A stretch of 64,000 nt of DNA from an uncultured Streptomycetaceae bacterium (GCA_964521405.1 CAZFRR010000065.1:357-64356); one strand, 5' to 3'; positions 10,637-49,877 are shown, numbered from the stretch's first letter. Numbers and translations: made by a program. The notes: generated by a model from the sequence alone, not told the origin.

Positions 10637-10712
10637 GTTCCGGGTTCCGGGTTCCGGGTTGATGTGAACCTTGAACCTTGAACCTTGAACTCGGAACTCG
10701 GAACTCGGAACC
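10637..10712. repeat. Short-period array hairpin, GGTTC / GAACC flavour
   Basis: Left arm: 3 x GTTCCGG plus GTT (10637-10660). Loop: GATGT. Right arm: 3 x GAACCTT, 3 x GAACTCG, then GAACC (10666-10712). It fills the whole 81-nt moxR-DUF58 spacer. Confidence 0.9.
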
Positions 10713-13797: not shown

Positions 13798-13920
13798 GTT
13801 CCGGGTTCCGGGTTCCGGGTTCCGGGTTCCGGGTTCCGGGTTCCGGGTTCAAGATTGGAGTGGGCTGCAAATGGAGGATTCCGACTTTGAACTCGGAACT
13901 TTGAACTCGGAACCTTGAAC
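13798..13920. repeat. Short-period array hairpin, GGTTC / GAACC flavour
   Basis: Left arm: 7 x GTTCCGG plus GTTCAAG (13798-13853). The core is 29 nt. Right arm: GACTTTG AACTCGG AACTTTG AACTCGG AACCTTG AAC (13883-13920). The copy number was checked against the translation of ORF 13643..13918. Confidence 0.9.
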
Positions 13921-18358: not shown

Positions 18359-18966
18359 CACTGGGGCACAGTCGCCTTCACCGACGGCCGCTGCGCGATC
18401 TTCGCGTACCATTTCTCGAGCGCAGGATGCTGCGCGCGCCACTTTTCATCCGGGAAGCGGAAATCCAGGTAACCCAGCACGCAGGCCGCGGTGATCCCGC
18501 CGATGGCAAAGCGCTCGCCCCAGCCGGCGCACTCCTTCTCCAGCGCATCCAGGCCGCCCCTGACTTTGCCGAACTGGCCCGCAACCCAATCGCCCCATTG
18601 CAGCGCCTGCGGCCGCACCGCGCCCTCGTAGCGCATGAGAACCGCGGCCTCGAGTATGCCGTCGCCGAGCGCCTGCAGCCGCAGCTCGCGCCAGCGCTCC
18701 GTCCCCGCTTTCGGAAACAGTGGCTTGCCGCCGTGCAGGCTGTCGAGGTACTCGCAGATCACCGCCGAGTCATAGAGCGTACCCTCGCCCGGCGTGGACA
18801 GCGCCGGAATCTTGACCAGCGGATTCTCCTGCTCCAGCTCCACATGCGGCTTGACCGGGCTCACCATGATGCTGACCTCCTCGATGCGGCCATCGAGGCC
18901 GGTTTCCCGGGCCAAGATGCGCACCTTGCGCGCAAACGGTGATAGAGGATTCATCCAGAGTCGCAT
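18358..18966 (-). CDS. Glutathione S-transferase family protein
   Basis: ORF 18358..19032. The likely start is at 18966 (MRLWMNPLSPFARKV). It has a thioredoxin-like N-terminal domain plus a helical GST C-terminal domain. Confidence 0.85.
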   Translation of the reverse strand: MRLWMNPLSPFARKVRILARETGLDGRIEEVSIMVSPVKPHVELEQENPLVKIPALSTPGEGTLYDSAVICEYLDSLHGGKPLFPKAGTERWRELRLQALGDGILEAAVLMRYEGAVRPQALQWGDWVAGQFGKVRGGLDALEKECAGWGERFAIGGITAACVLGYLDFRFPDEKWRAQHPALEKWYAKIAQRPSVKATVPQ

Positions 18967-34469: not shown

Positions 34470-34777
34470 GGAAGGATTACGACGGGTCGCTAAGGACGCA
34501 AAGGCCGCGAAGGAAATAATAATTACAACAAAGGTCGCTAAGACAGCGCCAAGGGTGCTATCGGCAGGACAATTTGGAATAGATTTGAACCACGGCCGAA
34601 CCGGATTACTAAACATTACAATTCCGACAGCGTTTCCTATTCCCCGCTTGGCGCTGTCTTCGCGTCCTTTGGTTGGTTTTCGATAATGTATTCCTTCGCG
34701 GCCTTGGCGGCCTTTGCGTTGAGGCTTCTATTTTCCTTCGCGGCCTTGGCGGCCTTCGCGTTGAAGCTTTGCTGTCA
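34444..34777. repeat. Composite nested-palindrome element (CGCGAAGGA / TCCTTCGCG, GCCAAG / CTTGGC units)
   Basis: It starts CACCGCCAAG and ends AAGCTTTGCTGTCA. The inner perfect 14-bp pair is AAGACAGCGCCAAG (34540-34553) with CTTGGCGCTGTCTT (34647-34660). The core is AT-rich. The last 62 nt are about 85% identical to 40194-40254. Confidence 0.8.
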
Positions 34778-39824: not shown

Positions 39825-40254
39825 CACCGCCAAGGTAGCCAGGGACGCGAAGGAGCAGAAAAGCCTCGACACGAAGGACACAAAGGACACAAAGGACACT
39901 AAGGAAAAACGAATCAGAATTGATTCGGTGACCAGTCGCACCTGACCGGCCGCCGGACGGTTTACGGCTTTTGATCTTGGGGCCCCTGTGCGCTGCCGAG
40001 TAGCGCCCTGCCCCGGTGATGAGTGATAGGTGATGGGTGATGGGTCTTTTATTCCGAATCTCTGAACCAGTAGTGTCTCTTGTAGGCCACCCTTGGCGCG
40101 TTTCCTTCGCGACCTTCAGGTTTTGCCTTTGACCTTATTATTCTTCCCTTCGCGGTAAAGCTTTTATTTTCCTTGGCGACCTCCGCGTCCTTCGCGGTGA
40201 GGCTTTTCTGTTCCTTCGCGGCCTTGGCGTCCTTCGCGGTAAAGCTTTACGTCA
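39825..40254. repeat. Composite nested-palindrome element (same family as 34444-34777) with internal arrays
   Basis: It starts CACCGCCAAG and ends AAGCTTTACGTCA. It contains 3 x (N)AAGGACAC with a 9-nt period near 39873-39907, a CGAATC/GATTCG hairpin, GTGATGA GTGATAG GTGATGG GTGATGG (40016-40045), and TCCTTCGCG units on the right. Confidence 0.8.
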
Positions 40255-45071: not shown

Positions 45072-45217
45072 GGTTTCTGCCGCAATGGCTGTAGTCGGAC
45101 CAGCCGCGCGCCCGGGCGCATCAGCGCAGTGAGGCGCATAATAAAGGTCCAGACTTGACCTCATCCCGGAACATGAATCCGCGTCGTACTGTCCAGGTAA
45201 TAACCCAGGAGGCTGCC

Positions 45218-45928
45218 ATGCCCGAAACCACCAGCAAGGTCAGCCCGCTCGTAGCGATCGCTGCAGTAGCGGTGACCATTTTCTGCGCCGTCGGTGTGGG
45301 AGTGATGACCGGGATCATCCCGAGTACCAGTTCCAAAACCGGGGAACAACCGGTCAAGCCAGAGGCGCCCCAGGCCACAGCACCGGCACCGGCGCCAGCC
45401 CCGGCCGCAGCGCCAGCATCCGTCCCGGCCGAAAAGCCGAAAGCAGCGACCGTGGCGCCGAAGAAGCCATCGACCGAACGGGTCCGGGTAGCCACTGCGG
45501 AGCCAGCCCGAGTGCCAGAGCCAGCCCGGTTGCCGGAGCCAGTCCAAACGCCGGAGCCGGCCCGGGCCCCGGAACCGGCCCGGATCGTTCAGGTGTGCAC
45601 GAACTGCGGCAGCGTCATTTCAGTCAACGTGATCAAGCAGGAAGGTGAAGGCAGCGGCCTCGGTGCCATCGGCGGCGCCGTGGTCGGCGGCGTGCTCGGC
45701 CACCAGATCGGGGGGGGCCGCGGCCGGGACGTCGCGACCGTGGTCGGTGCCGGCGCCGGCGCCTACGCCGGTCACCAGATCGAGAAAAACGTGAAGACGA
45801 CCCAAACCTACAACGTCGCGGTGCGCATGGACGATGGCTCAACGCGTAGTTTCCCGTACCAGACCGAACCCGGATTCAGGGCCGGCGACAAGGTCAAGGT
45901 TGTCGAGGGCAAGCTGGTCGGTAACTAG
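45218..45928 (+). CDS. Membrane-anchored glycine-zipper (Rick_17kDa_Anti/SlyB-like) protein with a Pro/Ala-rich linker
   Basis: ORF 45155..45928. The ATG at 45218 lies 6 nt after the SD AGGAGG. It has a TM helix, a PA-rich linker, CTNCG, and the glycine zipper GAIGGAVVGGVLGHQIGGG. Confidence 0.75.
   Translation: MPETTSKVSPLVAIAAVAVTIFCAVGVGVMTGIIPSTSSKTGEQPVKPEAPQATAPAPAPAPAAAPASVPAEKPKAATVAPKKPSTERVRVATAEPARVPEPARLPEPVQTPEPARAPEPARIVQVCTNCGSVISVNVIKQEGEGSGLGAIGGAVVGGVLGHQIGGGRGRDVATVVGAGAGAYAGHQIEKNVKTTQTYNVAVRMDDGSTRSFPYQTEPGFRAGDKVKVVEGKLVGN
45500..45589 (+). repeat. In-frame 18-nt tandem repeat x5 encoding EPARVP EPARLP EPVQTP EPARAP EPARIV
   Basis: Read from the translation. The position was computed from the ORF start. 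Confidence 0.8.
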
Positions 45929-46059: not shown

Positions 46060-46920
46060 ATGACTTCCTTAGCCCTGTCGCTGATCCTCGCCGCCGCCGT
46101 CATCCACGCGAGCTGGAACTACCTCCTCAAGCGCTCGGGCGGCGGTGTCGTATTCGTGTGGCTGTTCGCCAGCCTCTCCGCGCTCATCTACCTGCCACTG
46201 GCGGGGCTCATCATCTGGTGGGAAAAGCCTCAATTCGGGTGGGTGCATTACGGCCTGATGTTCGCGAGCGCGGTCCTGCATACCGTTTATTACCTGCTGC
46301 TCGACCGCGGCTACCGCAGCGGCGACCTGTCGGTGGTCTACCCCATCGCCCGCGGCACTGGCCCGCTCATCACCGTGCTGTGCGCCGTGCTGCTGCTGGG
46401 CGAGCACCCGAGCGCGATCGCGATTGCCGGGGCGCTGCTCATCGGCGGCGGCGCGATCGCGCTGACGGGCGACCCGCGCAAGCTTCGCCAGTCCGGGAAT
46501 CTTCACGCGGTCGGCTTCGCATTGCTGACCGGATGCATGATCGCCAGCTACACGCTGGTGGACAAGATCGCCGTCGCCGCCTGGCTGATCCCGCCGCTGG
46601 TGCAGGACTGGGCCACCAACGTCGGCCGCGTGCTGCTGATGACGCCGATGGCGCTGAAGCGCAAGGCGGAGATCGCGCCCACCTGGCATCGCGCCAAAAA
46701 GGAAATCCTCGCGGTGGCGGTGCTTTGCCCGCTGTCCTACATCCTGGTGCTGACGGCGATGGTGTTCACGCCGGTAAGCTATGTCGCGCCGGCGCGCGAA
46801 ATCAGCATTCTCGTTGCGGCGTTCATGGGAACGCAGTGGCTGGCGGAAGGCGACGTCAGGCGCCGGCTGGCCGCCGCCGGCGCGATGGTCGCCGGCATCA
46901 TCTGCTTAGCCGTGGGCTGA
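46060..46920 (+). CDS. DMT-superfamily (EamA-like) transporter
   Basis: 286 aa, about 10 hydrophobic helices, N-terminus MTSLALSLILAAAVIHASWNYLLK. Confidence 0.85.
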   Translation: MTSLALSLILAAAVIHASWNYLLKRSGGGVVFVWLFASLSALIYLPLAGLIIWWEKPQFGWVHYGLMFASAVLHTVYYLLLDRGYRSGDLSVVYPIARGTGPLITVLCAVLLLGEHPSAIAIAGALLIGGGAIALTGDPRKLRQSGNLHAVGFALLTGCMIASYTLVDKIAVAAWLIPPLVQDWATNVGRVLLMTPMALKRKAEIAPTWHRAKKEILAVAVLCPLSYILVLTAMVFTPVSYVAPAREISILVAAFMGTQWLAEGDVRRRLAAAGAMVAGIICLAVG

Positions 46921-46930
46921 CCGCTGCCAC

Positions 46931-47129
46931 GTTCAAAGTTCAAGGTTCAAGGTTCAAGGTTCAAAGTTCAAGGTTCAAGATTGTCAGTGCGAGCTGCCGC
47001 TCGCGATTTTGAACCCGGAACCCGGAACCCGGAACCCGGAACCCGGAACACGGAACCCGGAACCCGGAACCCGGAACCTGGAACCTGGAACCTGGAACTC
47101 GAAACTCGGAACCCGGAACCCGGAACTCA
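46931..47129. repeat. Largest array hairpin in the window, GGTTC / GAACC flavour (7 + 17 units)
   Basis: Left arm, 7 units of GTTCAA(A/G) (46931-46979). The 31-nt core carries the hairpin GCGAGC-TGCC-GCTCGC followed by GATTTT. Right arm, 17 units (47011-47129): 5 x GAACCCG, GAACACG, 3 x GAACCCG, 3 x GAACCTG, GAACTCG, AAACTCG, 2 x GAACCCG, GAACTCA. Checked against ORF translations. Confidence 0.9.
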
Positions 47130-47151
47130 ATCGCCGACAATGTCGGCGATT
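47129..47151. other. Perfect 10-bp hairpin AATCGCCGAC-AAT-GTCGGCGATT overlapping the bamD stop codon
   Basis: Read directly. There is no flanking T-run on the bamD strand. Confidence 0.6.
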
Positions 47152-47953
47152 ACCAGTTCCAGATCTGCCACCACGGAACGTCCTTCTTCGGGCCGCCCTT
47201 CAGGTAAACGCTATTCGGGAAATTTCTCATCATCACGCGTTCGGCGTCGTCCCGCAGGTCATTCATGCCCAGGGCATCGTAGGCCTTGACCAGGATCAGC
47301 AGCCCTTCCTCGTTCGCCGGCGCCTGGGGGTAGGTCTTGAGCGCATACTGGGCGCGGTTGGCCGCCGCGACAAAGGCGCTGCGCTTCATGTAATAGCGCG
47401 CGACGTGCACCTCATGCGAGGCGAGCGCATTCAGGAGATAATTCATCCGGGCAATGGCGTCCGGCGTGTAGCGGCTCTCCGGGAAACGGATCGCCAGGTC
47501 CTTGAACGCCTGGAACGCCTCGGCTGCCGCCTTCGGGTCGCGCTCGGTGAGATCCTGCCCGCTCACGTAGCCCGCCCATCCCAGGTCATCGTTGAAATTG
47601 GCGAGACCCTTCAGATAGTAGGCGTAGTCGACGTTGGGATGGTTGGGGTGGAGCTTGATGAAACGATCCGTAGCGGCCACGGCCTGCACCGGTTCGTTAT
47701 CCTTGTAATAGGCGTAGGCGACCTCGATCTGGGCCTGCTGGGCAAAACGCCCGTACGGATAACGGGCCTCGAGCTTCTGATAGTACTTGATCGCCTGCTC
47801 GTAATTCCGGTTGTTGAGGTTGTCCTTCGCTTCGTTGTAGAGCTTCTGCGCCGACCAGCCCTTGGTTTCGTCCTCTGCCTCGCCCAGCAGGCCGCACGCG
47901 CCGATCAGCACGCCGATGAGTAGCGCTAGAATAGAACGAACGATGAACGACAT
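47150..47953 (-). CDS. bamD: Outer membrane protein assembly factor BamD
   Basis: 267 aa with lipobox LIGACG and a TPR-like body. It is divergent from rluD, as in E. coli. Confidence 0.93.
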
Positions 47954-48952: not shown

Positions 48953-49738
48953 ATGAAATCGCCACACCCGGACTGGATCGTTCCCGACTGGCCCGCGCCG
49001 GCCAACGTCAAGGCCTTCATCACCACGCGGTCCGGTGGCGTCAGTGGCGGCGCCTTTGCCAGCCTGAATCTCGGGCTGCGCACGGATGACGACGCTCAGG
49101 CGGTCGCCGCCAACCGCAAACGATTGTGCGAGTCGCTGCCGCAGCAGCCGCAATGGCTGAAGCAGGTGCACGGCGCCAGCGTCGTCGAGGCCGACCGGCT
49201 TGCCGGGGTGCCCGAGGCTGATGCGGCGATTGCCCGCCAACCGGATACGGTCTGCGCGGTGCTGGTGGCCGATTGCATACCGGTGCTGCTCGCCGACCGC
49301 GCCGGCACCACCGTCGCCATGGCTCACTGCGGATGGCGCGGGCTGGCAGGCGGGATCCTGGAAAACACGCTAATGCGAATGTCTCAGCCGCCTGGGCAAA
49401 TCCTCGCCTATCTCGGCCCCGGCATCGGCCCGCGCGCTTTCGAAGTGGGCGCGGACGTGCGCGACGCATTCCTGGCAGTCGATGCACAGGCGGAAATCGC
49501 ATTCAAACCACACGCCACCGGCAAATGGCTGGCCGACCTCTTTCTGCTCGCGCGCCAGCGCCTCGCCCGCGCCGGCCTGAGCAGCATTCACGGCGGAGAG
49601 CTGTGCACCTTTACCGACTCACAGCGCTTCTTCTCCTATCGCCGCGACCGCACGACCGGCCGGATGGCAGCGGTCATTTGGCTGTCCGCCGAAACGGCGA
49701 ACAGCCAAATGACCGGAGGGATGAAGGCGGAAGGATGA
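48953..49738 (+). CDS. pgeF: Peptidoglycan editing factor PgeF (YfiH, laccase-domain protein)
   Basis: ORF 48947..49738 with ATG at 48953. rluD-yfiH synteny supports the call. The segment HCGWRG is present. Confidence 0.88.
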   Translation: MKSPHPDWIVPDWPAPANVKAFITTRSGGVSGGAFASLNLGLRTDDDAQAVAANRKRLCESLPQQPQWLKQVHGASVVEADRLAGVPEADAAIARQPDTVCAVLVADCIPVLLADRAGTTVAMAHCGWRGLAGGILENTLMRMSQPPGQILAYLGPGIGPRAFEVGADVRDAFLAVDAQAEIAFKPHATGKWLADLFLLARQRLARAGLSSIHGGELCTFTDSQRFFSYRRDRTTGRMAAVIWLSAETANSQMTGGMKAEG

Positions 49739-49829
49739 AGGATGACCTTGCCCGGCGCGAGCCGGGAGAAGGCCCTTTCGCCTTTCCCCTTTTCCTTTTG
49801 CCTTTTGCCTTTTGCCTTTCGACTTCCGC
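49715..49829. repeat. Short-period array hairpin, GATGAAG / CTTTTGC flavour
   Basis: The left arm GGAGG GATGAAG GCGGAAG GATGAAG GATGACC (49715-49747) includes the pgeF stop. The core hairpin is CCCGGC-GCGA-GCCGGG. Right arm: CCTTTCG CCTTTCC CCTTTTC, 3 x CTTTTGC, CTTTCGA CTTCCGC (49774-49829). Confidence 0.85.
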
Positions 49830-49877
49830 CTTATCACGTATAATCCGCGCCTCGTCTGAAACCCTGCAAAGATCTTG

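What the first reader, a model, noticed from the sequence alone, without database searches (positions are those of the whole stretch)
46931..47151. Asymmetric 7 + 17-unit array hairpin with block-wise unit variants and about 20 GGA motifs
The right arm is 119 nt, comprising 17 heptamers. The variants occur in contiguous blocks: 5 x GAACCCG, GAACACG, 3 x GAACCCG, 3 x GAACCTG, GAACTCG, AAACTCG, 2 x GAACCCG, GAACTCA. This is the pattern expected from local duplication of neighbouring units. The left arm has only 7 GTTCAA(A/G) units and pairs only through the GGTTC/GAACC core, so much of the right arm would be unpaired if transcribed. Every unit junction in the right arm creates CGGAAC, so the GGA triplet recurs every 7 nt. 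One speculative role is a sponge for a GGA-binding regulator such as CsrA/RsmA. The core also holds a terminator-like GCGAGC-TGCC-GCTCGC-GATTTT. A separate perfect 10-bp hairpin overlaps the bamD stop.
Basis: partly seen in the sequence, partly recalled or inferred. Interest (0 to 1): 0.6.

Follow-up and report, generated by a model that had tools for sequence, protein, structure and literature searches.

The report
Seven-base repeat hairpin between two genes
The 220-base feature is one copy of a fast-changing family of hairpins whose two arms are tandem 7-base repeats, a type of intergenic repeat known from cyanobacteria, Xanthomonas and Geobacter, and nothing supports the idea that it soaks up the regulator CsrA.

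Summary
The anatomy is real. Seven GTTCAAR units, a 31-nt core and 17 GAAC-type heptamers fill the gap between the converging EamA-transporter and bamD genes. A 10-bp hairpin overlaps the bamD stop. GGA occurs 15 times, not about 20.

It is one of roughly 20 such array hairpins in this 64-kb window of an uncultured Burkholderiales genome.
- **Growth by local duplication:** the block order of unit variants is non-random (P about 0.01).
- **Fast turnover:** relatives at 96% and 84% BamD identity keep an array hairpin in the same gap, built on the same EamA-side unit. Their partner units, unit numbers (about 9+4; 5+13 or 5+11) and cores differ. More distant relatives have only a plain hairpin.
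- **Exchange between sites:** the core (29/31 nt) with both arm types recurs at an unrelated site, 3' of a CHAD gene in another organism. Copies therefore spread or exchange sequence.

The CsrA-sponge reading is unsupported. The periodic GGA comes from one unit type, lies downstream of the core hairpin on its strand, is absent from an orthologous array, and has no Rfam match.

Best reading: a slippage-driven, dispersed heptanucleotide array hairpin, tolerated at 3' ends and at most a generic transcript-end stem-loop.

The parts
46060..46920 (+). EamA-family transporter gene, stop TGA at 46918-46920. The left arm starts 10 nt after the stop.
   Evidence: Pfam PF00892, E 3.9e-14. ORF list. The ortholog sits in the same position in L083 and L086.
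46931..46979 (+). Left arm: 7 heptamers GTTCAA(A/G). This is the conserved 'anchor' arm, also present (as CTTGAAN in the bamD sense) in orthologous spacers of relatives.
   Evidence: Orthologs L083, L086, L088.
46980..47010 (+). Core ATTGTCAGT-GCGAGC-TGCC-GCTCGC-GATTTT. A 6-bp hairpin (46989-47004) with a 4-T tail. It is shared 29/31 nt with a non-orthologous element (L209).
   Evidence: Unique in the window. Fails the terminator scan. L209 match.
47011..47024 (+). Right-arm units R1-R2 (GAACCCG x2), predicted to pair with left units L7-L6.
   Evidence: Pair table of the MFE folds on both strands.
47025..47073 (+). Right-arm units R3-R9 (3 x GAACCCG, GAACACG, 3 x GAACCCG). These surplus units are predicted to fold on themselves as a side branch. 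On the - strand the loop falls on the variant unit R6.
47074..47108 (+). Right-arm units R10-R14 (3 x GAACCTG, GAACTCG, AAACTCG), predicted partners of left units L5-L1. They have the best Watson-Crick match to the left arm (32/42 against 28/42 for the inner units).
47109..47129 (+). Right-arm units R15-R17 (2 x GAACCCG, GAACTCA). In the folds they pair with the last bamD codons (GGAACT) and so extend the stop hairpin.
47129..47151 (-). 10-bp hairpin AATCGCCGAC-AAT-GTCGGCGATT overlapping the bamD stop. A hairpin at this position, with a different sequence, is kept in relatives that lack arrays.
   Evidence: Relatives L001, L003, L083, L085, L089. An RNA contig of the 96% relative ends inside it.
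47150..47953 (-). bamD (YfiO) outer-membrane assembly lipoprotein gene, converging on the EamA gene.
   Evidence: Pfam PF13525, E 2.3e-65. Homologs named BamD.

Best explanation
The feature is one copy of a lineage-wide class of intergenic 'array hairpins': two inverted arrays of tandem heptanucleotides around a short core.

How it arises and changes:
- Units are gained and lost by slipped-strand mispairing within each arm. This gives blocks of identical variants, independent arm lengths and the 7-versus-17 asymmetry.
- Copies at different sites exchange or spread sequence, either by ectopic recombination or conversion through the shared units or by transposition. This explains why the core matches an unrelated site better than its own orthologs.
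- The element persists in spacers at gene 3' ends, where it is tolerated.

What it does (inferred, not shown): at most it serves as a generic transcript-end stem-loop for the EamA gene, acting as a barrier to read-through or to 3' exonucleases. This is the role proposed for cyanobacterial STRR hairpins and for REP elements. bamD has its own conserved stop-overlapping hairpin.

The periodic GGA is a by-product of the unit sequence and has no regulatory role.
For: Class membership:
- 26 of the 39 tandem arrays of at least 3 copies in the window have period 7.
- About 11 clear inverted pairs have arms that pair best with their own partner or a same-family partner.
- Arrays lie in 6/8 convergent, 13/25 same-direction and 2/8 divergent spacers.

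Slippage:
- Non-random blocks of unit variants.
- 13 against 11 perfect CCTTGAA units in two samples with identical BamD.

Turnover:
- L083 (96% BamD) and L086 (84%) have array hairpins in the same spacer, with the same EamA-side unit but different partner units, numbers and cores.
- 30 relatives at 64-82% BamD identity have none.

Spread or exchange:
- L209 shares 29/31 core bases and both arm types at a CHAD-gene 3' end (blastn 126 nt, 87%, no gaps, E 4e-36).
- L209's own ortholog L211 has another core.
- A further copy with a compensated core stem sits at the same depth as this organism in three runs.
- A 30/30-nt arm is shared by window 49719-49748 and a different spacer of L083.

Literature:
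- Heptanucleotides are the commonest long simple-sequence repeat in bacteria (Mrazek 2007 as summarised in PMC4679880).
- Convergent inverted heptamer pairs occur in Xanthomonas (PMC4692102).
- Paired heptanucleotide sites occur in Geobacter (PMC2700814).
- 7-bp STRR hairpins occur in cyanobacteria (PMC2670836).
Against: - No direct evidence of transcription through the arrays. Public runs are held only as contigs, which break in the repeats.
- The core is not a canonical intrinsic terminator.
- In 8 same-direction loci, the sense RNA is more stable than the antisense in only 3. So there is no sign of selection on the RNA fold.
- A purely neutral or selfish element fits the same data.
- The limited 'vocabulary' of units, and the presence of (GTTCAAG)n in many phyla, are not explained by slippage alone.
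- The unit count of 17 rests on one assembly. Independent contigs confirm only the outer 4-5 units and the core.
Confidence: 0.62

Rival explanations
1. Purely selfish or neutral DNA. The array hairpin has no function for the cell. It is a mutational by-product (slippage plus ectopic conversion, or a non-autonomous mobile element) that survives only where it does no harm.
For: - Very fast turnover of units, numbers and cores between close relatives.
- No strand bias of RNA stability.
- Either arm can be the long one (7/17 here, 5/13 in L086, at least 17/8 in L209).
- Arrays are absent from the same conserved regulatory spacers in three genomes.
Against: - An array hairpin is kept in the same spacers in three genomes despite complete sequence replacement.
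- Arms keep at least 5/7 complementarity through three different unit solutions.
- Both points could still be explained by tolerance and by common origin of the arms.
Confidence: 0.3
2. CsrA/RsmA sponge. The right arm is transcribed and its 15 GGA motifs titrate a CsrA-family protein.
For: - 15 GGA at 7-nt spacing on one strand.
- The orthologous arm in L083 (GGGACTT on the same strand) also has one GGA per unit (my reading of the spacer).
Against: - The GGA strand lies downstream of the core hairpin and T-run, and antisense to bamD.
- No promoter-like site is found.
- The G residues are paired in CCGG helices in the fold.
- L086 arms carry at most one GGA on either strand (my reading of the spacer).
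- Most arrays of the class lack GGA, and GAAC-type arrays carry it on either strand relative to genes.
- No Rfam match.
- Known CsrA sites are spaced more than 7 nt apart (Duss 2014 as cited in PMC4679880).
- Presence of csrA could not be checked.
Confidence: 0.03
3. DNA-level element. The arrays are read as double-stranded or cruciform DNA by a protein (nucleoid-associated protein, gyrase, a recombinase or a RAYT-like transposase) that recognises the 5-nt GGTTC/GAACC core every 7 bp.
For: - A conserved 4-5-nt core with 2-3 variable linker bases in each unit family.
- A limited unit vocabulary recurs at many loci.
- The single-strand DNA fold is also highly significant.
- No RNA strand bias.
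- Copies occur at non-orthologous sites.
- REP/BIME elements bind gyrase and IHF (from my own knowledge, not checked here).
Against:
- Several unrelated unit families coexist, which would need several readers.
- The same unit occurs in many phyla.
Confidence: 0.05

Closest known systems
Cyanobacterial STRR (short tandemly repeated repetitive) heptamer hairpins, e.g. between hupS and hupL (as described in PMC2670836)
   Same: - Tandem 7-bp units in intergenic spacers that can fold into a hairpin.
- Placed close to the 3' end of the upstream gene.
- Function unknown. Proposed roles are transcript stability, translational coupling or termination.
   Different: - Different phylum and different units.
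- Here several unit families coexist at high density (about 20 loci in 64 kb).
- The arms are often mismatched hybrids (5/7 complementarity).
- A shared core shows exchange between sites.
Xanthomonas GGGAATC heptamer repeats in convergent inverted pairs (Rehm et al. 2015, PMC4692102)
   Same: - Heptameric arrays, about 90% intergenic and close to the upstream ORF's end.
- 70-75 convergent inverted pairs per genome.
- Repeats of comparable length are not located at the same sites in X. campestris and X. axonopodis.
   Different: - One G-rich unit family there, studied for G-quadruplex formation.
- Here the units are not G-tracts and many families coexist.
Geobacter metallireducens multicopy heptanucleotide elements (Aklujkar et al. 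2009, PMC2700814)
   Same: - Families of four to five tandem heptanucleotides at tens of loci.
- One class is drawn as strand-switching pairs.
- Regulatory roles were predicted but not tested.
   Different: - Fixed small unit numbers (4-5).
- Some copies lie inside genes.
- No shared core or 17-unit arms were described.
REP / BIME / REPIN elements and MITEs with internal tandem repeats (PMC3733652, PMC4596501)
   Same: - Dispersed intergenic palindromes at gene 3' ends.
- Proposed roles in termination and mRNA stabilisation.
- Copies occur at non-orthologous sites.
   Different: - REPs are single 20-40-bp palindromes with conserved GTAG/CGTC tags.
- No such tag, target-site duplication or associated transposase was seen or testable here.
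- Here the arms are themselves simple-sequence arrays.
CsrB/RsmY/RsmZ-type CsrA sponge RNAs
   Same: Many GGA motifs in a short non-coding stretch.
   Different: - No promoter of its own, no terminator of its own and no Rfam match.
- GGA spacing is a rigid 7 nt, and the motifs lie within helices.
- The motif is not conserved in orthologs.

Membership tests
Heptanucleotide array hairpin (STRR-like / Xanthomonas-type inverted heptamer pairs) | Tandem repeats with a 7-nt period | tested here: met
   TRF period 7, 7.0 and 16.6 copies. Unit parsing.
Heptanucleotide array hairpin (STRR-like / Xanthomonas-type inverted heptamer pairs) | Two arrays in inverted orientation, able to pair | tested here: met
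   GGTTC/GAACC complementarity. Folds at z -7.2 to -7.9. Arm-pairing matrix.
Heptanucleotide array hairpin (STRR-like / Xanthomonas-type inverted heptamer pairs) | Intergenic, next to the 3' end of a gene | tested here: met
   Starts 10 nt after the EamA stop, between convergent genes.
Heptanucleotide array hairpin (STRR-like / Xanthomonas-type inverted heptamer pairs) | Many copies per genome, poorly conserved between related genomes | tested here: met
   Window census. Orthologous spacers differ.
CsrA/RsmA sponge sRNA | Independent transcription unit (own promoter and terminator) | tested here: not met
   No promoter-like or terminator-like site in 46700-47400. This is a consensus scan only.
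CsrA/RsmA sponge sRNA | GGA motifs exposed in loops or single strands, irregularly spaced more than 7 nt apart | tested here: not met
   Rigid 7-nt spacing. The G residues are paired in CCGG helices in the fold. Spacing rule as cited in PMC4679880.
CsrA/RsmA sponge sRNA | Match to a Csr/Rsm RNA family | tested here: not met
   Only chance miRNA-like hits at E 2-9.
CsrA/RsmA sponge sRNA | csrA/rsmA gene in the genome | not testable with these tools
Intrinsic (Rho-independent) terminator | GC-rich stem followed by a U-tract | tested here: not met
   Core stem of 6 bp with tail GATTTTGA (4 T). Not called by the scan. The bamD stop hairpin has no T-run either.
REP/REPIN | 20-40-bp palindrome with a conserved GTAG/CGTC tag, associated with a RAYT gene | tested here: inconclusive
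   I saw no GTAG or CGTC tag at the ends of the element on reading it. A RAYT gene could not be searched.
MITE | Terminal inverted repeats with target-site duplication; filled and empty sites | tested here: inconclusive
   - Copies at non-orthologous sites.
- No target-site duplication visible at 46921-46930 / 47130-47139.
- Relatives without arrays are too diverged to define an empty site.
Contingency (phase-variation) locus | Repeat within a promoter or reading frame of the controlled gene | tested here: not met
   The arrays lie downstream of both stop codons.

The most novel reading that the evidence does not exclude
The array hairpins of this uncultured Burkholderiales lineage are a self-propagating element family. 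Core-plus-arm modules would move or convert between 3' spacers with the help of a dedicated protein (a RAYT-like or other hairpin- or heptad-reading enzyme). The heptamer arms would be the recognition or priming substrate. The near-identical core at the EamA/bamD and CHAD sites would then be a recent transfer event.
Probability: 0.2. Interest if true: 0.7.

Novelty: new variant of a known kind. Interest (0 to 1): 0.4.

Why it matters
- **An unexplained repeat class.** Heptanucleotide arrays are the commonest long simple-sequence repeat in bacteria, yet they have no established function or mechanism.
- **A useful test locus.** In one orthologous spacer the hairpin architecture and one arm persist while the partner arm, the unit numbers and the core are replaced. 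A core also travels between unrelated sites.
- **What that separates.** Three processes can be told apart here: slippage, exchange between copies, and retention at 3' ends. Long reads and reporter assays could test each one.
- **A practical consequence.** These arrays end short-read contigs (six of the fetched contigs stop inside them). They therefore fragment metagenome-assembled genomes and are under-represented in databases.

Tried and rejected
- **CsrA presence:** A literature search for CsrA distribution in Betaproteobacteria gave nothing usable.
- **Known RNA families:** none at the gathering threshold in the window except two tRNAs. Only chance hits over the region at E <= 10.
- **Terminator or promoter consensus:** none in 46700-47400.
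- **Second copy of the core in the window:** none within 3 mismatches. None in the first 89 loci. None in the genome-contig collection.
- **Strain-level count of the 17 units:** the same-strain runs are held only as k=31 contigs that break inside the arrays. The EamA protein is not on record under the start I chose.
- **Transcription:**
  - The metatranscriptome contigs are swamped by cross-mapping arrays and carry no strand.
  - The only hint is that the bamD RNA contig of the 96% relative stops inside the stop hairpin.
  - DNA contigs of what appears to be the same variant (same base differences over bamD) carry 83 more bases beyond the point where they stop matching the window.
- **RNA-level selection:** comparing sense and antisense stability in 8 same-direction loci gave 3 against 5.
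- **tRNA T-arm resemblance:** I considered that GGTTCAAG mimics a tRNA T-arm and dropped it, because other unit families in the window are unrelated to it.
- **Artefact:** rejected, because independent contigs from other samples carry the same outer units and core.

Full report
**1. What is there**

- Seven GTTCAA(A/G) units occupy 46931-46979.
- A 31-nt core, ATTGTCAGT-GCGAGC-TGCC-GCTCGC-GATTTT, occupies 46980-47010.
- Seventeen heptamers occupy 47011-47129, in exactly the listed order: 5 GAACCCG, GAACACG, 3 GAACCCG, 3 GAACCTG, GAACTCG, AAACTCG, 2 GAACCCG, GAACTCA.
- A perfect 10-bp hairpin (47129-47151) overlaps the bamD stop codon.

The flanking genes are an EamA-family transporter (46060-46920, + strand) and bamD/yfiO (47150-47953, - strand). 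The element therefore fills the 229-nt gap between two converging 3' ends.

Three details need correction.
- GGA occurs 15 times, not about 20.
- By my count from the unit list, only 12 of the 16 junctions read CGGAAC.
- The core hairpin has four T after it and is not called terminator-like by the consensus scan.

The region folds much better than dinucleotide shuffles: z -7.2 for + RNA, -7.7 for - RNA and -7.9 for single-stranded DNA.

**2. Fine structure**

On both strands the minimum-energy fold is a three-way junction, not a hairpin with a long unpaired tail.
- Left units L7-L6 pair with R1-R2.
- Left units L5-L1 pair with R10-R14. This is the block of GAACCTG/GAACTCG variants, which match the left arm better than the consensus unit does (32/42 against 28/42 Watson-Crick).
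- The seven surplus units R3-R9 fold on themselves. On the bamD-sense strand, (CGGGUUC)n is self-complementary through G-U pairs, and the loop falls on the one variant unit R6.
- R15-R17 pair with the last bamD codons.

The block-wise order of variants is unlikely by chance: P = 0.013 for identical neighbours and P = 0.007 for neighbour distance. This supports growth by duplication of adjacent units. One reading of the fold is that R3-R9 is a later one-sided expansion inside an older, roughly 7+8 hairpin. That is inference only.

**3. It is one of many**

The window has 64% G+C and comes from an uncultured Burkholderiales organism. The nearest species-level genome has 81% BamD identity.
- Among its tandem arrays of at least three copies, 26 of 39 have period 7.
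- About 20 spacers hold arrays, mostly as inverted pairs around a short core.
- By a crude gene map, arrays lie in 6 of 8 convergent, 13 of 25 same-direction and 2 of 8 divergent spacers of at least 30 nt. The numbers are small, so this is a trend only.
- In a matrix of all left arms against all right arms, the cognate partner is best in 7 of 11 loci. In 3 more (10 of 11 in all) it is beaten only by arms of the same unit family.
- A few families recur: GAAC-type, AATGATG, CGTGATT, ACGAG, CACAGAGGA.
- The focal locus is a 'hybrid'. Its left arm would pair better with the right arms at 10665 and 13884. Its right arm would pair better with the GTTCCGG arms at 10637 and 13798.

**4. Relatives**

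None of the 30 species-level relatives I printed (64-82% BamD identity) has an array after bamD. The closest two (L001, L003) have only a plain hairpin over the stop codon.

Closer relatives came from a protein search and exact look-ups.

| Locus | BamD identity | bamD-side arm | Core | EamA-side arm |
|---|---|---|---|---|
| Window | 100% | 17 units, CGGGTTC type | 31 nt with GCGAGC hairpin | 7 x CTTGAAC |
| L083 | 96% | about 9 units, mainly CAAGTCC | short, no GCGAGC hairpin | about 4 x CTTGAAA |
| L086 (4.0-Mb contig) | 84% | 5 x NCAAGGN | a different core | 13 perfect CCTTGAA |
| L088 | same BamD protein as L086, another sample | as L086, plus one base change | as L086 | 11 units |
| L089 | 96% | degenerate CCCAA/TTGGG hairpin | | |

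- The position, the architecture and the EamA-side unit are kept across these loci.
- The partner arm complements a different phase of that unit in each genome: GGTTC here, CAAGT in L083, CAAGG in L086.
- All of these spacers fold significantly, with z from -4.6 to -7.7.
- Neighbouring orthologous spacers behave the same way. The lysS-acs and Cu-oxidase_4/Zip gaps hold array hairpins in the window, L083 and L086, but with different unit families. The Zip-phaC gap and the conserved regulatory gap before the phasin-like gene hold none in any of the three.

**5. Exchange between sites**

A scan of JGI metagenome contigs for the core found one hit, L209.
- It has at least 17 GTTCAAG units, then GGTTGTCAGC-GCGAGC-TGCC-GCTCGC-GATTTT (29 of 31 core bases identical), then eight GAACNNN units.
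- These abut a hairpin over the stop of a CHAD-domain gene next to ppk.
- blastn aligns 126 nt at 87% identity without gaps, E 4e-36.
- L209's flank occurs in other sequencing runs than the window's flank. Its CHAD protein is nearest to the same group of uncultured Burkholderiales genomes.
- L209's own ortholog, L211, has the same arm types but a different core.

So the focal core resembles an unrelated site in another organism more than it resembles its own orthologs.

Two further observations point the same way.
- A copy with a changed but still paired core stem (CAGCGAGC-TGTC-GCTCGC-GTTGTT) appears in three runs at the same depth as this organism: 5.5 against 5.8, 16.3 against 15.4, and 9.5 against 9.5. 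It is probably a second copy in the same genome.
- A 30/30-nt arm, including a variant unit, is shared by window 49719-49748 and the acs-EamA spacer of L083.

Slippage alone cannot produce these patterns. Copies must move or convert one another. I could not tell which, and I saw no target-site duplication.

**6. Spread of the unit**

- In every DNA and RNA sediment run laid on the region, the array columns collect 100 to 2000 times the depth of the flanks.
- (GTTCAAG)x4 occurs exactly in more than 119 genome contigs from many phyla. Of 128 such arrays, 31 have an inverted heptamer partner within 200 nt.
- Period 7 dominates the bystander arrays in those contigs as well.
- This agrees with the report that heptanucleotides are the commonest long simple-sequence repeat in bacteria (Mrazek 2007 as summarised in PMC4679880).
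- It also fits the weak repair of loops of 4 nt or more (PMC4060949).

**7. The CsrA idea**

- The GGA repeats follow from the unit GAACCCG.
- On their strand they lie after the core hairpin and T-run. On the bamD strand they read UCC.
- No promoter-like site is present.
- In the fold the two G of each GGA are paired in CCGG helices.
- The L086 arms carry at most one GGA on either strand (my reading of the spacer printed).
- Most arrays in the window have none, and GAAC-type arrays carry it on either strand relative to the genes.
- No Rfam family matches.
- Known CsrA sites are spaced more than 7 nt apart (Duss 2014 as cited in PMC4679880).

I put this reading at about 3%.

**8. What it does**

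Shown:
- It belongs to the class.
- It changes by local duplication.
- It turns over quickly.
- It shares sequence with non-orthologous copies.

Inferred: in the EamA sense the left arm begins 10 nt after the stop, and the same is true in the orthologs. The hairpin is therefore the only 3' structure that gene has. A role as a generic transcript-end stem-loop is plausible and matches proposals for STRR hairpins (PMC2670836) and for REP elements.

bamD has its own stop-overlapping hairpin, kept with changed sequence in relatives that lack arrays.
- An RNA-run contig of the 96% relative ends inside that hairpin.
- DNA-run contigs of what appears to be the same variant (same base differences over bamD) carry 83 more bases beyond the point where they stop matching the window.
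- This is a weak hint that bamD mRNA ends before the arrays.

Against a selected RNA fold: in eight same-direction loci the sense RNA is the more stable in only three. A neutral or selfish element remains a serious rival, at about 30%.

**9. Comparison and novelty**

The closest known kinds are:
- cyanobacterial STRR hairpins;
- Xanthomonas GGGAATC convergent pairs (PMC4692102);
- Geobacter paired heptanucleotide sites (PMC2700814).

The locus meets all the features I could list for that kind. It fails those of a CsrA sponge, an intrinsic terminator and a contingency locus. REP/REPIN and MITE membership stays open.

What differs from the published cases:
- the density of the elements and the number of coexisting unit families;
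- the hybrid arms;
- the three-way junction;
- a core that travels between sites.

I rate it a new variant of a known kind, with interest 0.4.

**10. Caveats**

- The unit count of 17 rests on one assembly.
- The gene map is crude.
- All public runs were available only as contigs without strand.

Noticed in passing
window 49714-49832 and L083:7882-7911: The GGATGAA/TCATCCT array arm (30/30 nt, including the variant unit TCCGCCT) sits in the Cu-oxidase_4/Zip spacer here. In the 96% relative L083 it sits in the acs-EamA spacer, and L083's Cu-oxidase_4/Zip spacer holds CGTGATT-type arrays instead.
   Followed up: partly
window 45155-45928: A glycine-zipper (Rick_17kDa_Anti, PF05433) gene lies between acs and the EamA gene. 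It is absent from the syntenic regions of L083 and L086, whose acs-EamA spacers are 132 and 223 nt long.
   Followed up: no
window 40147-40248 and 34693-34760; L086:16997-17197 and 18659-18728: A different dispersed repeat, with about 42-nt units containing CCTTCGCGG 9-mers, has 83-88% matches near recJ in the 84% relative L086. It appears to be a second repeat class with longer units.
   Followed up: no
L081, L082, L087, L089, L209, L211 (contig ends): Six fetched short-read contigs end inside heptamer arrays. L081 is bounded by arrays at both ends. These repeats systematically fragment metagenome assemblies and will be under-counted in contig databases.
   Followed up: partly
L142:1438-1605 and other loci L090-L208: (GTTCAAG)n arrays of 4 to 24 perfect units occur in genomes from many phyla, including Pseudoalteromonas, Geobacter, Bacteroidota, Acidobacteriota, Chloroflexota and Patescibacteria. 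About a quarter have an inverted heptamer partner within 200 nt. Why the same unit recurs so widely is unexplained.
   Followed up: partly
window 47129-47160 (- strand) and the same position in L001, L003, L083, L085, L089: A hairpin overlapping the bamD stop codon is kept in relatives, with different stem sequences. The conserved last codons (TGG AAC TGG) can pair with the first array unit, so the GAAC-type unit might have been seeded from this stem.
   Followed up: partly
window 13798-13920: This is the mirror image of the focal locus. Here 7.6 perfect GTTCCGG units (the exact complement type of the focal right arm) face CTTTGAA/CTCGGAA units, and the left arm ends in GTTCAAGATTG, like the focal left-arm/core boundary.
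   Followed up: partly
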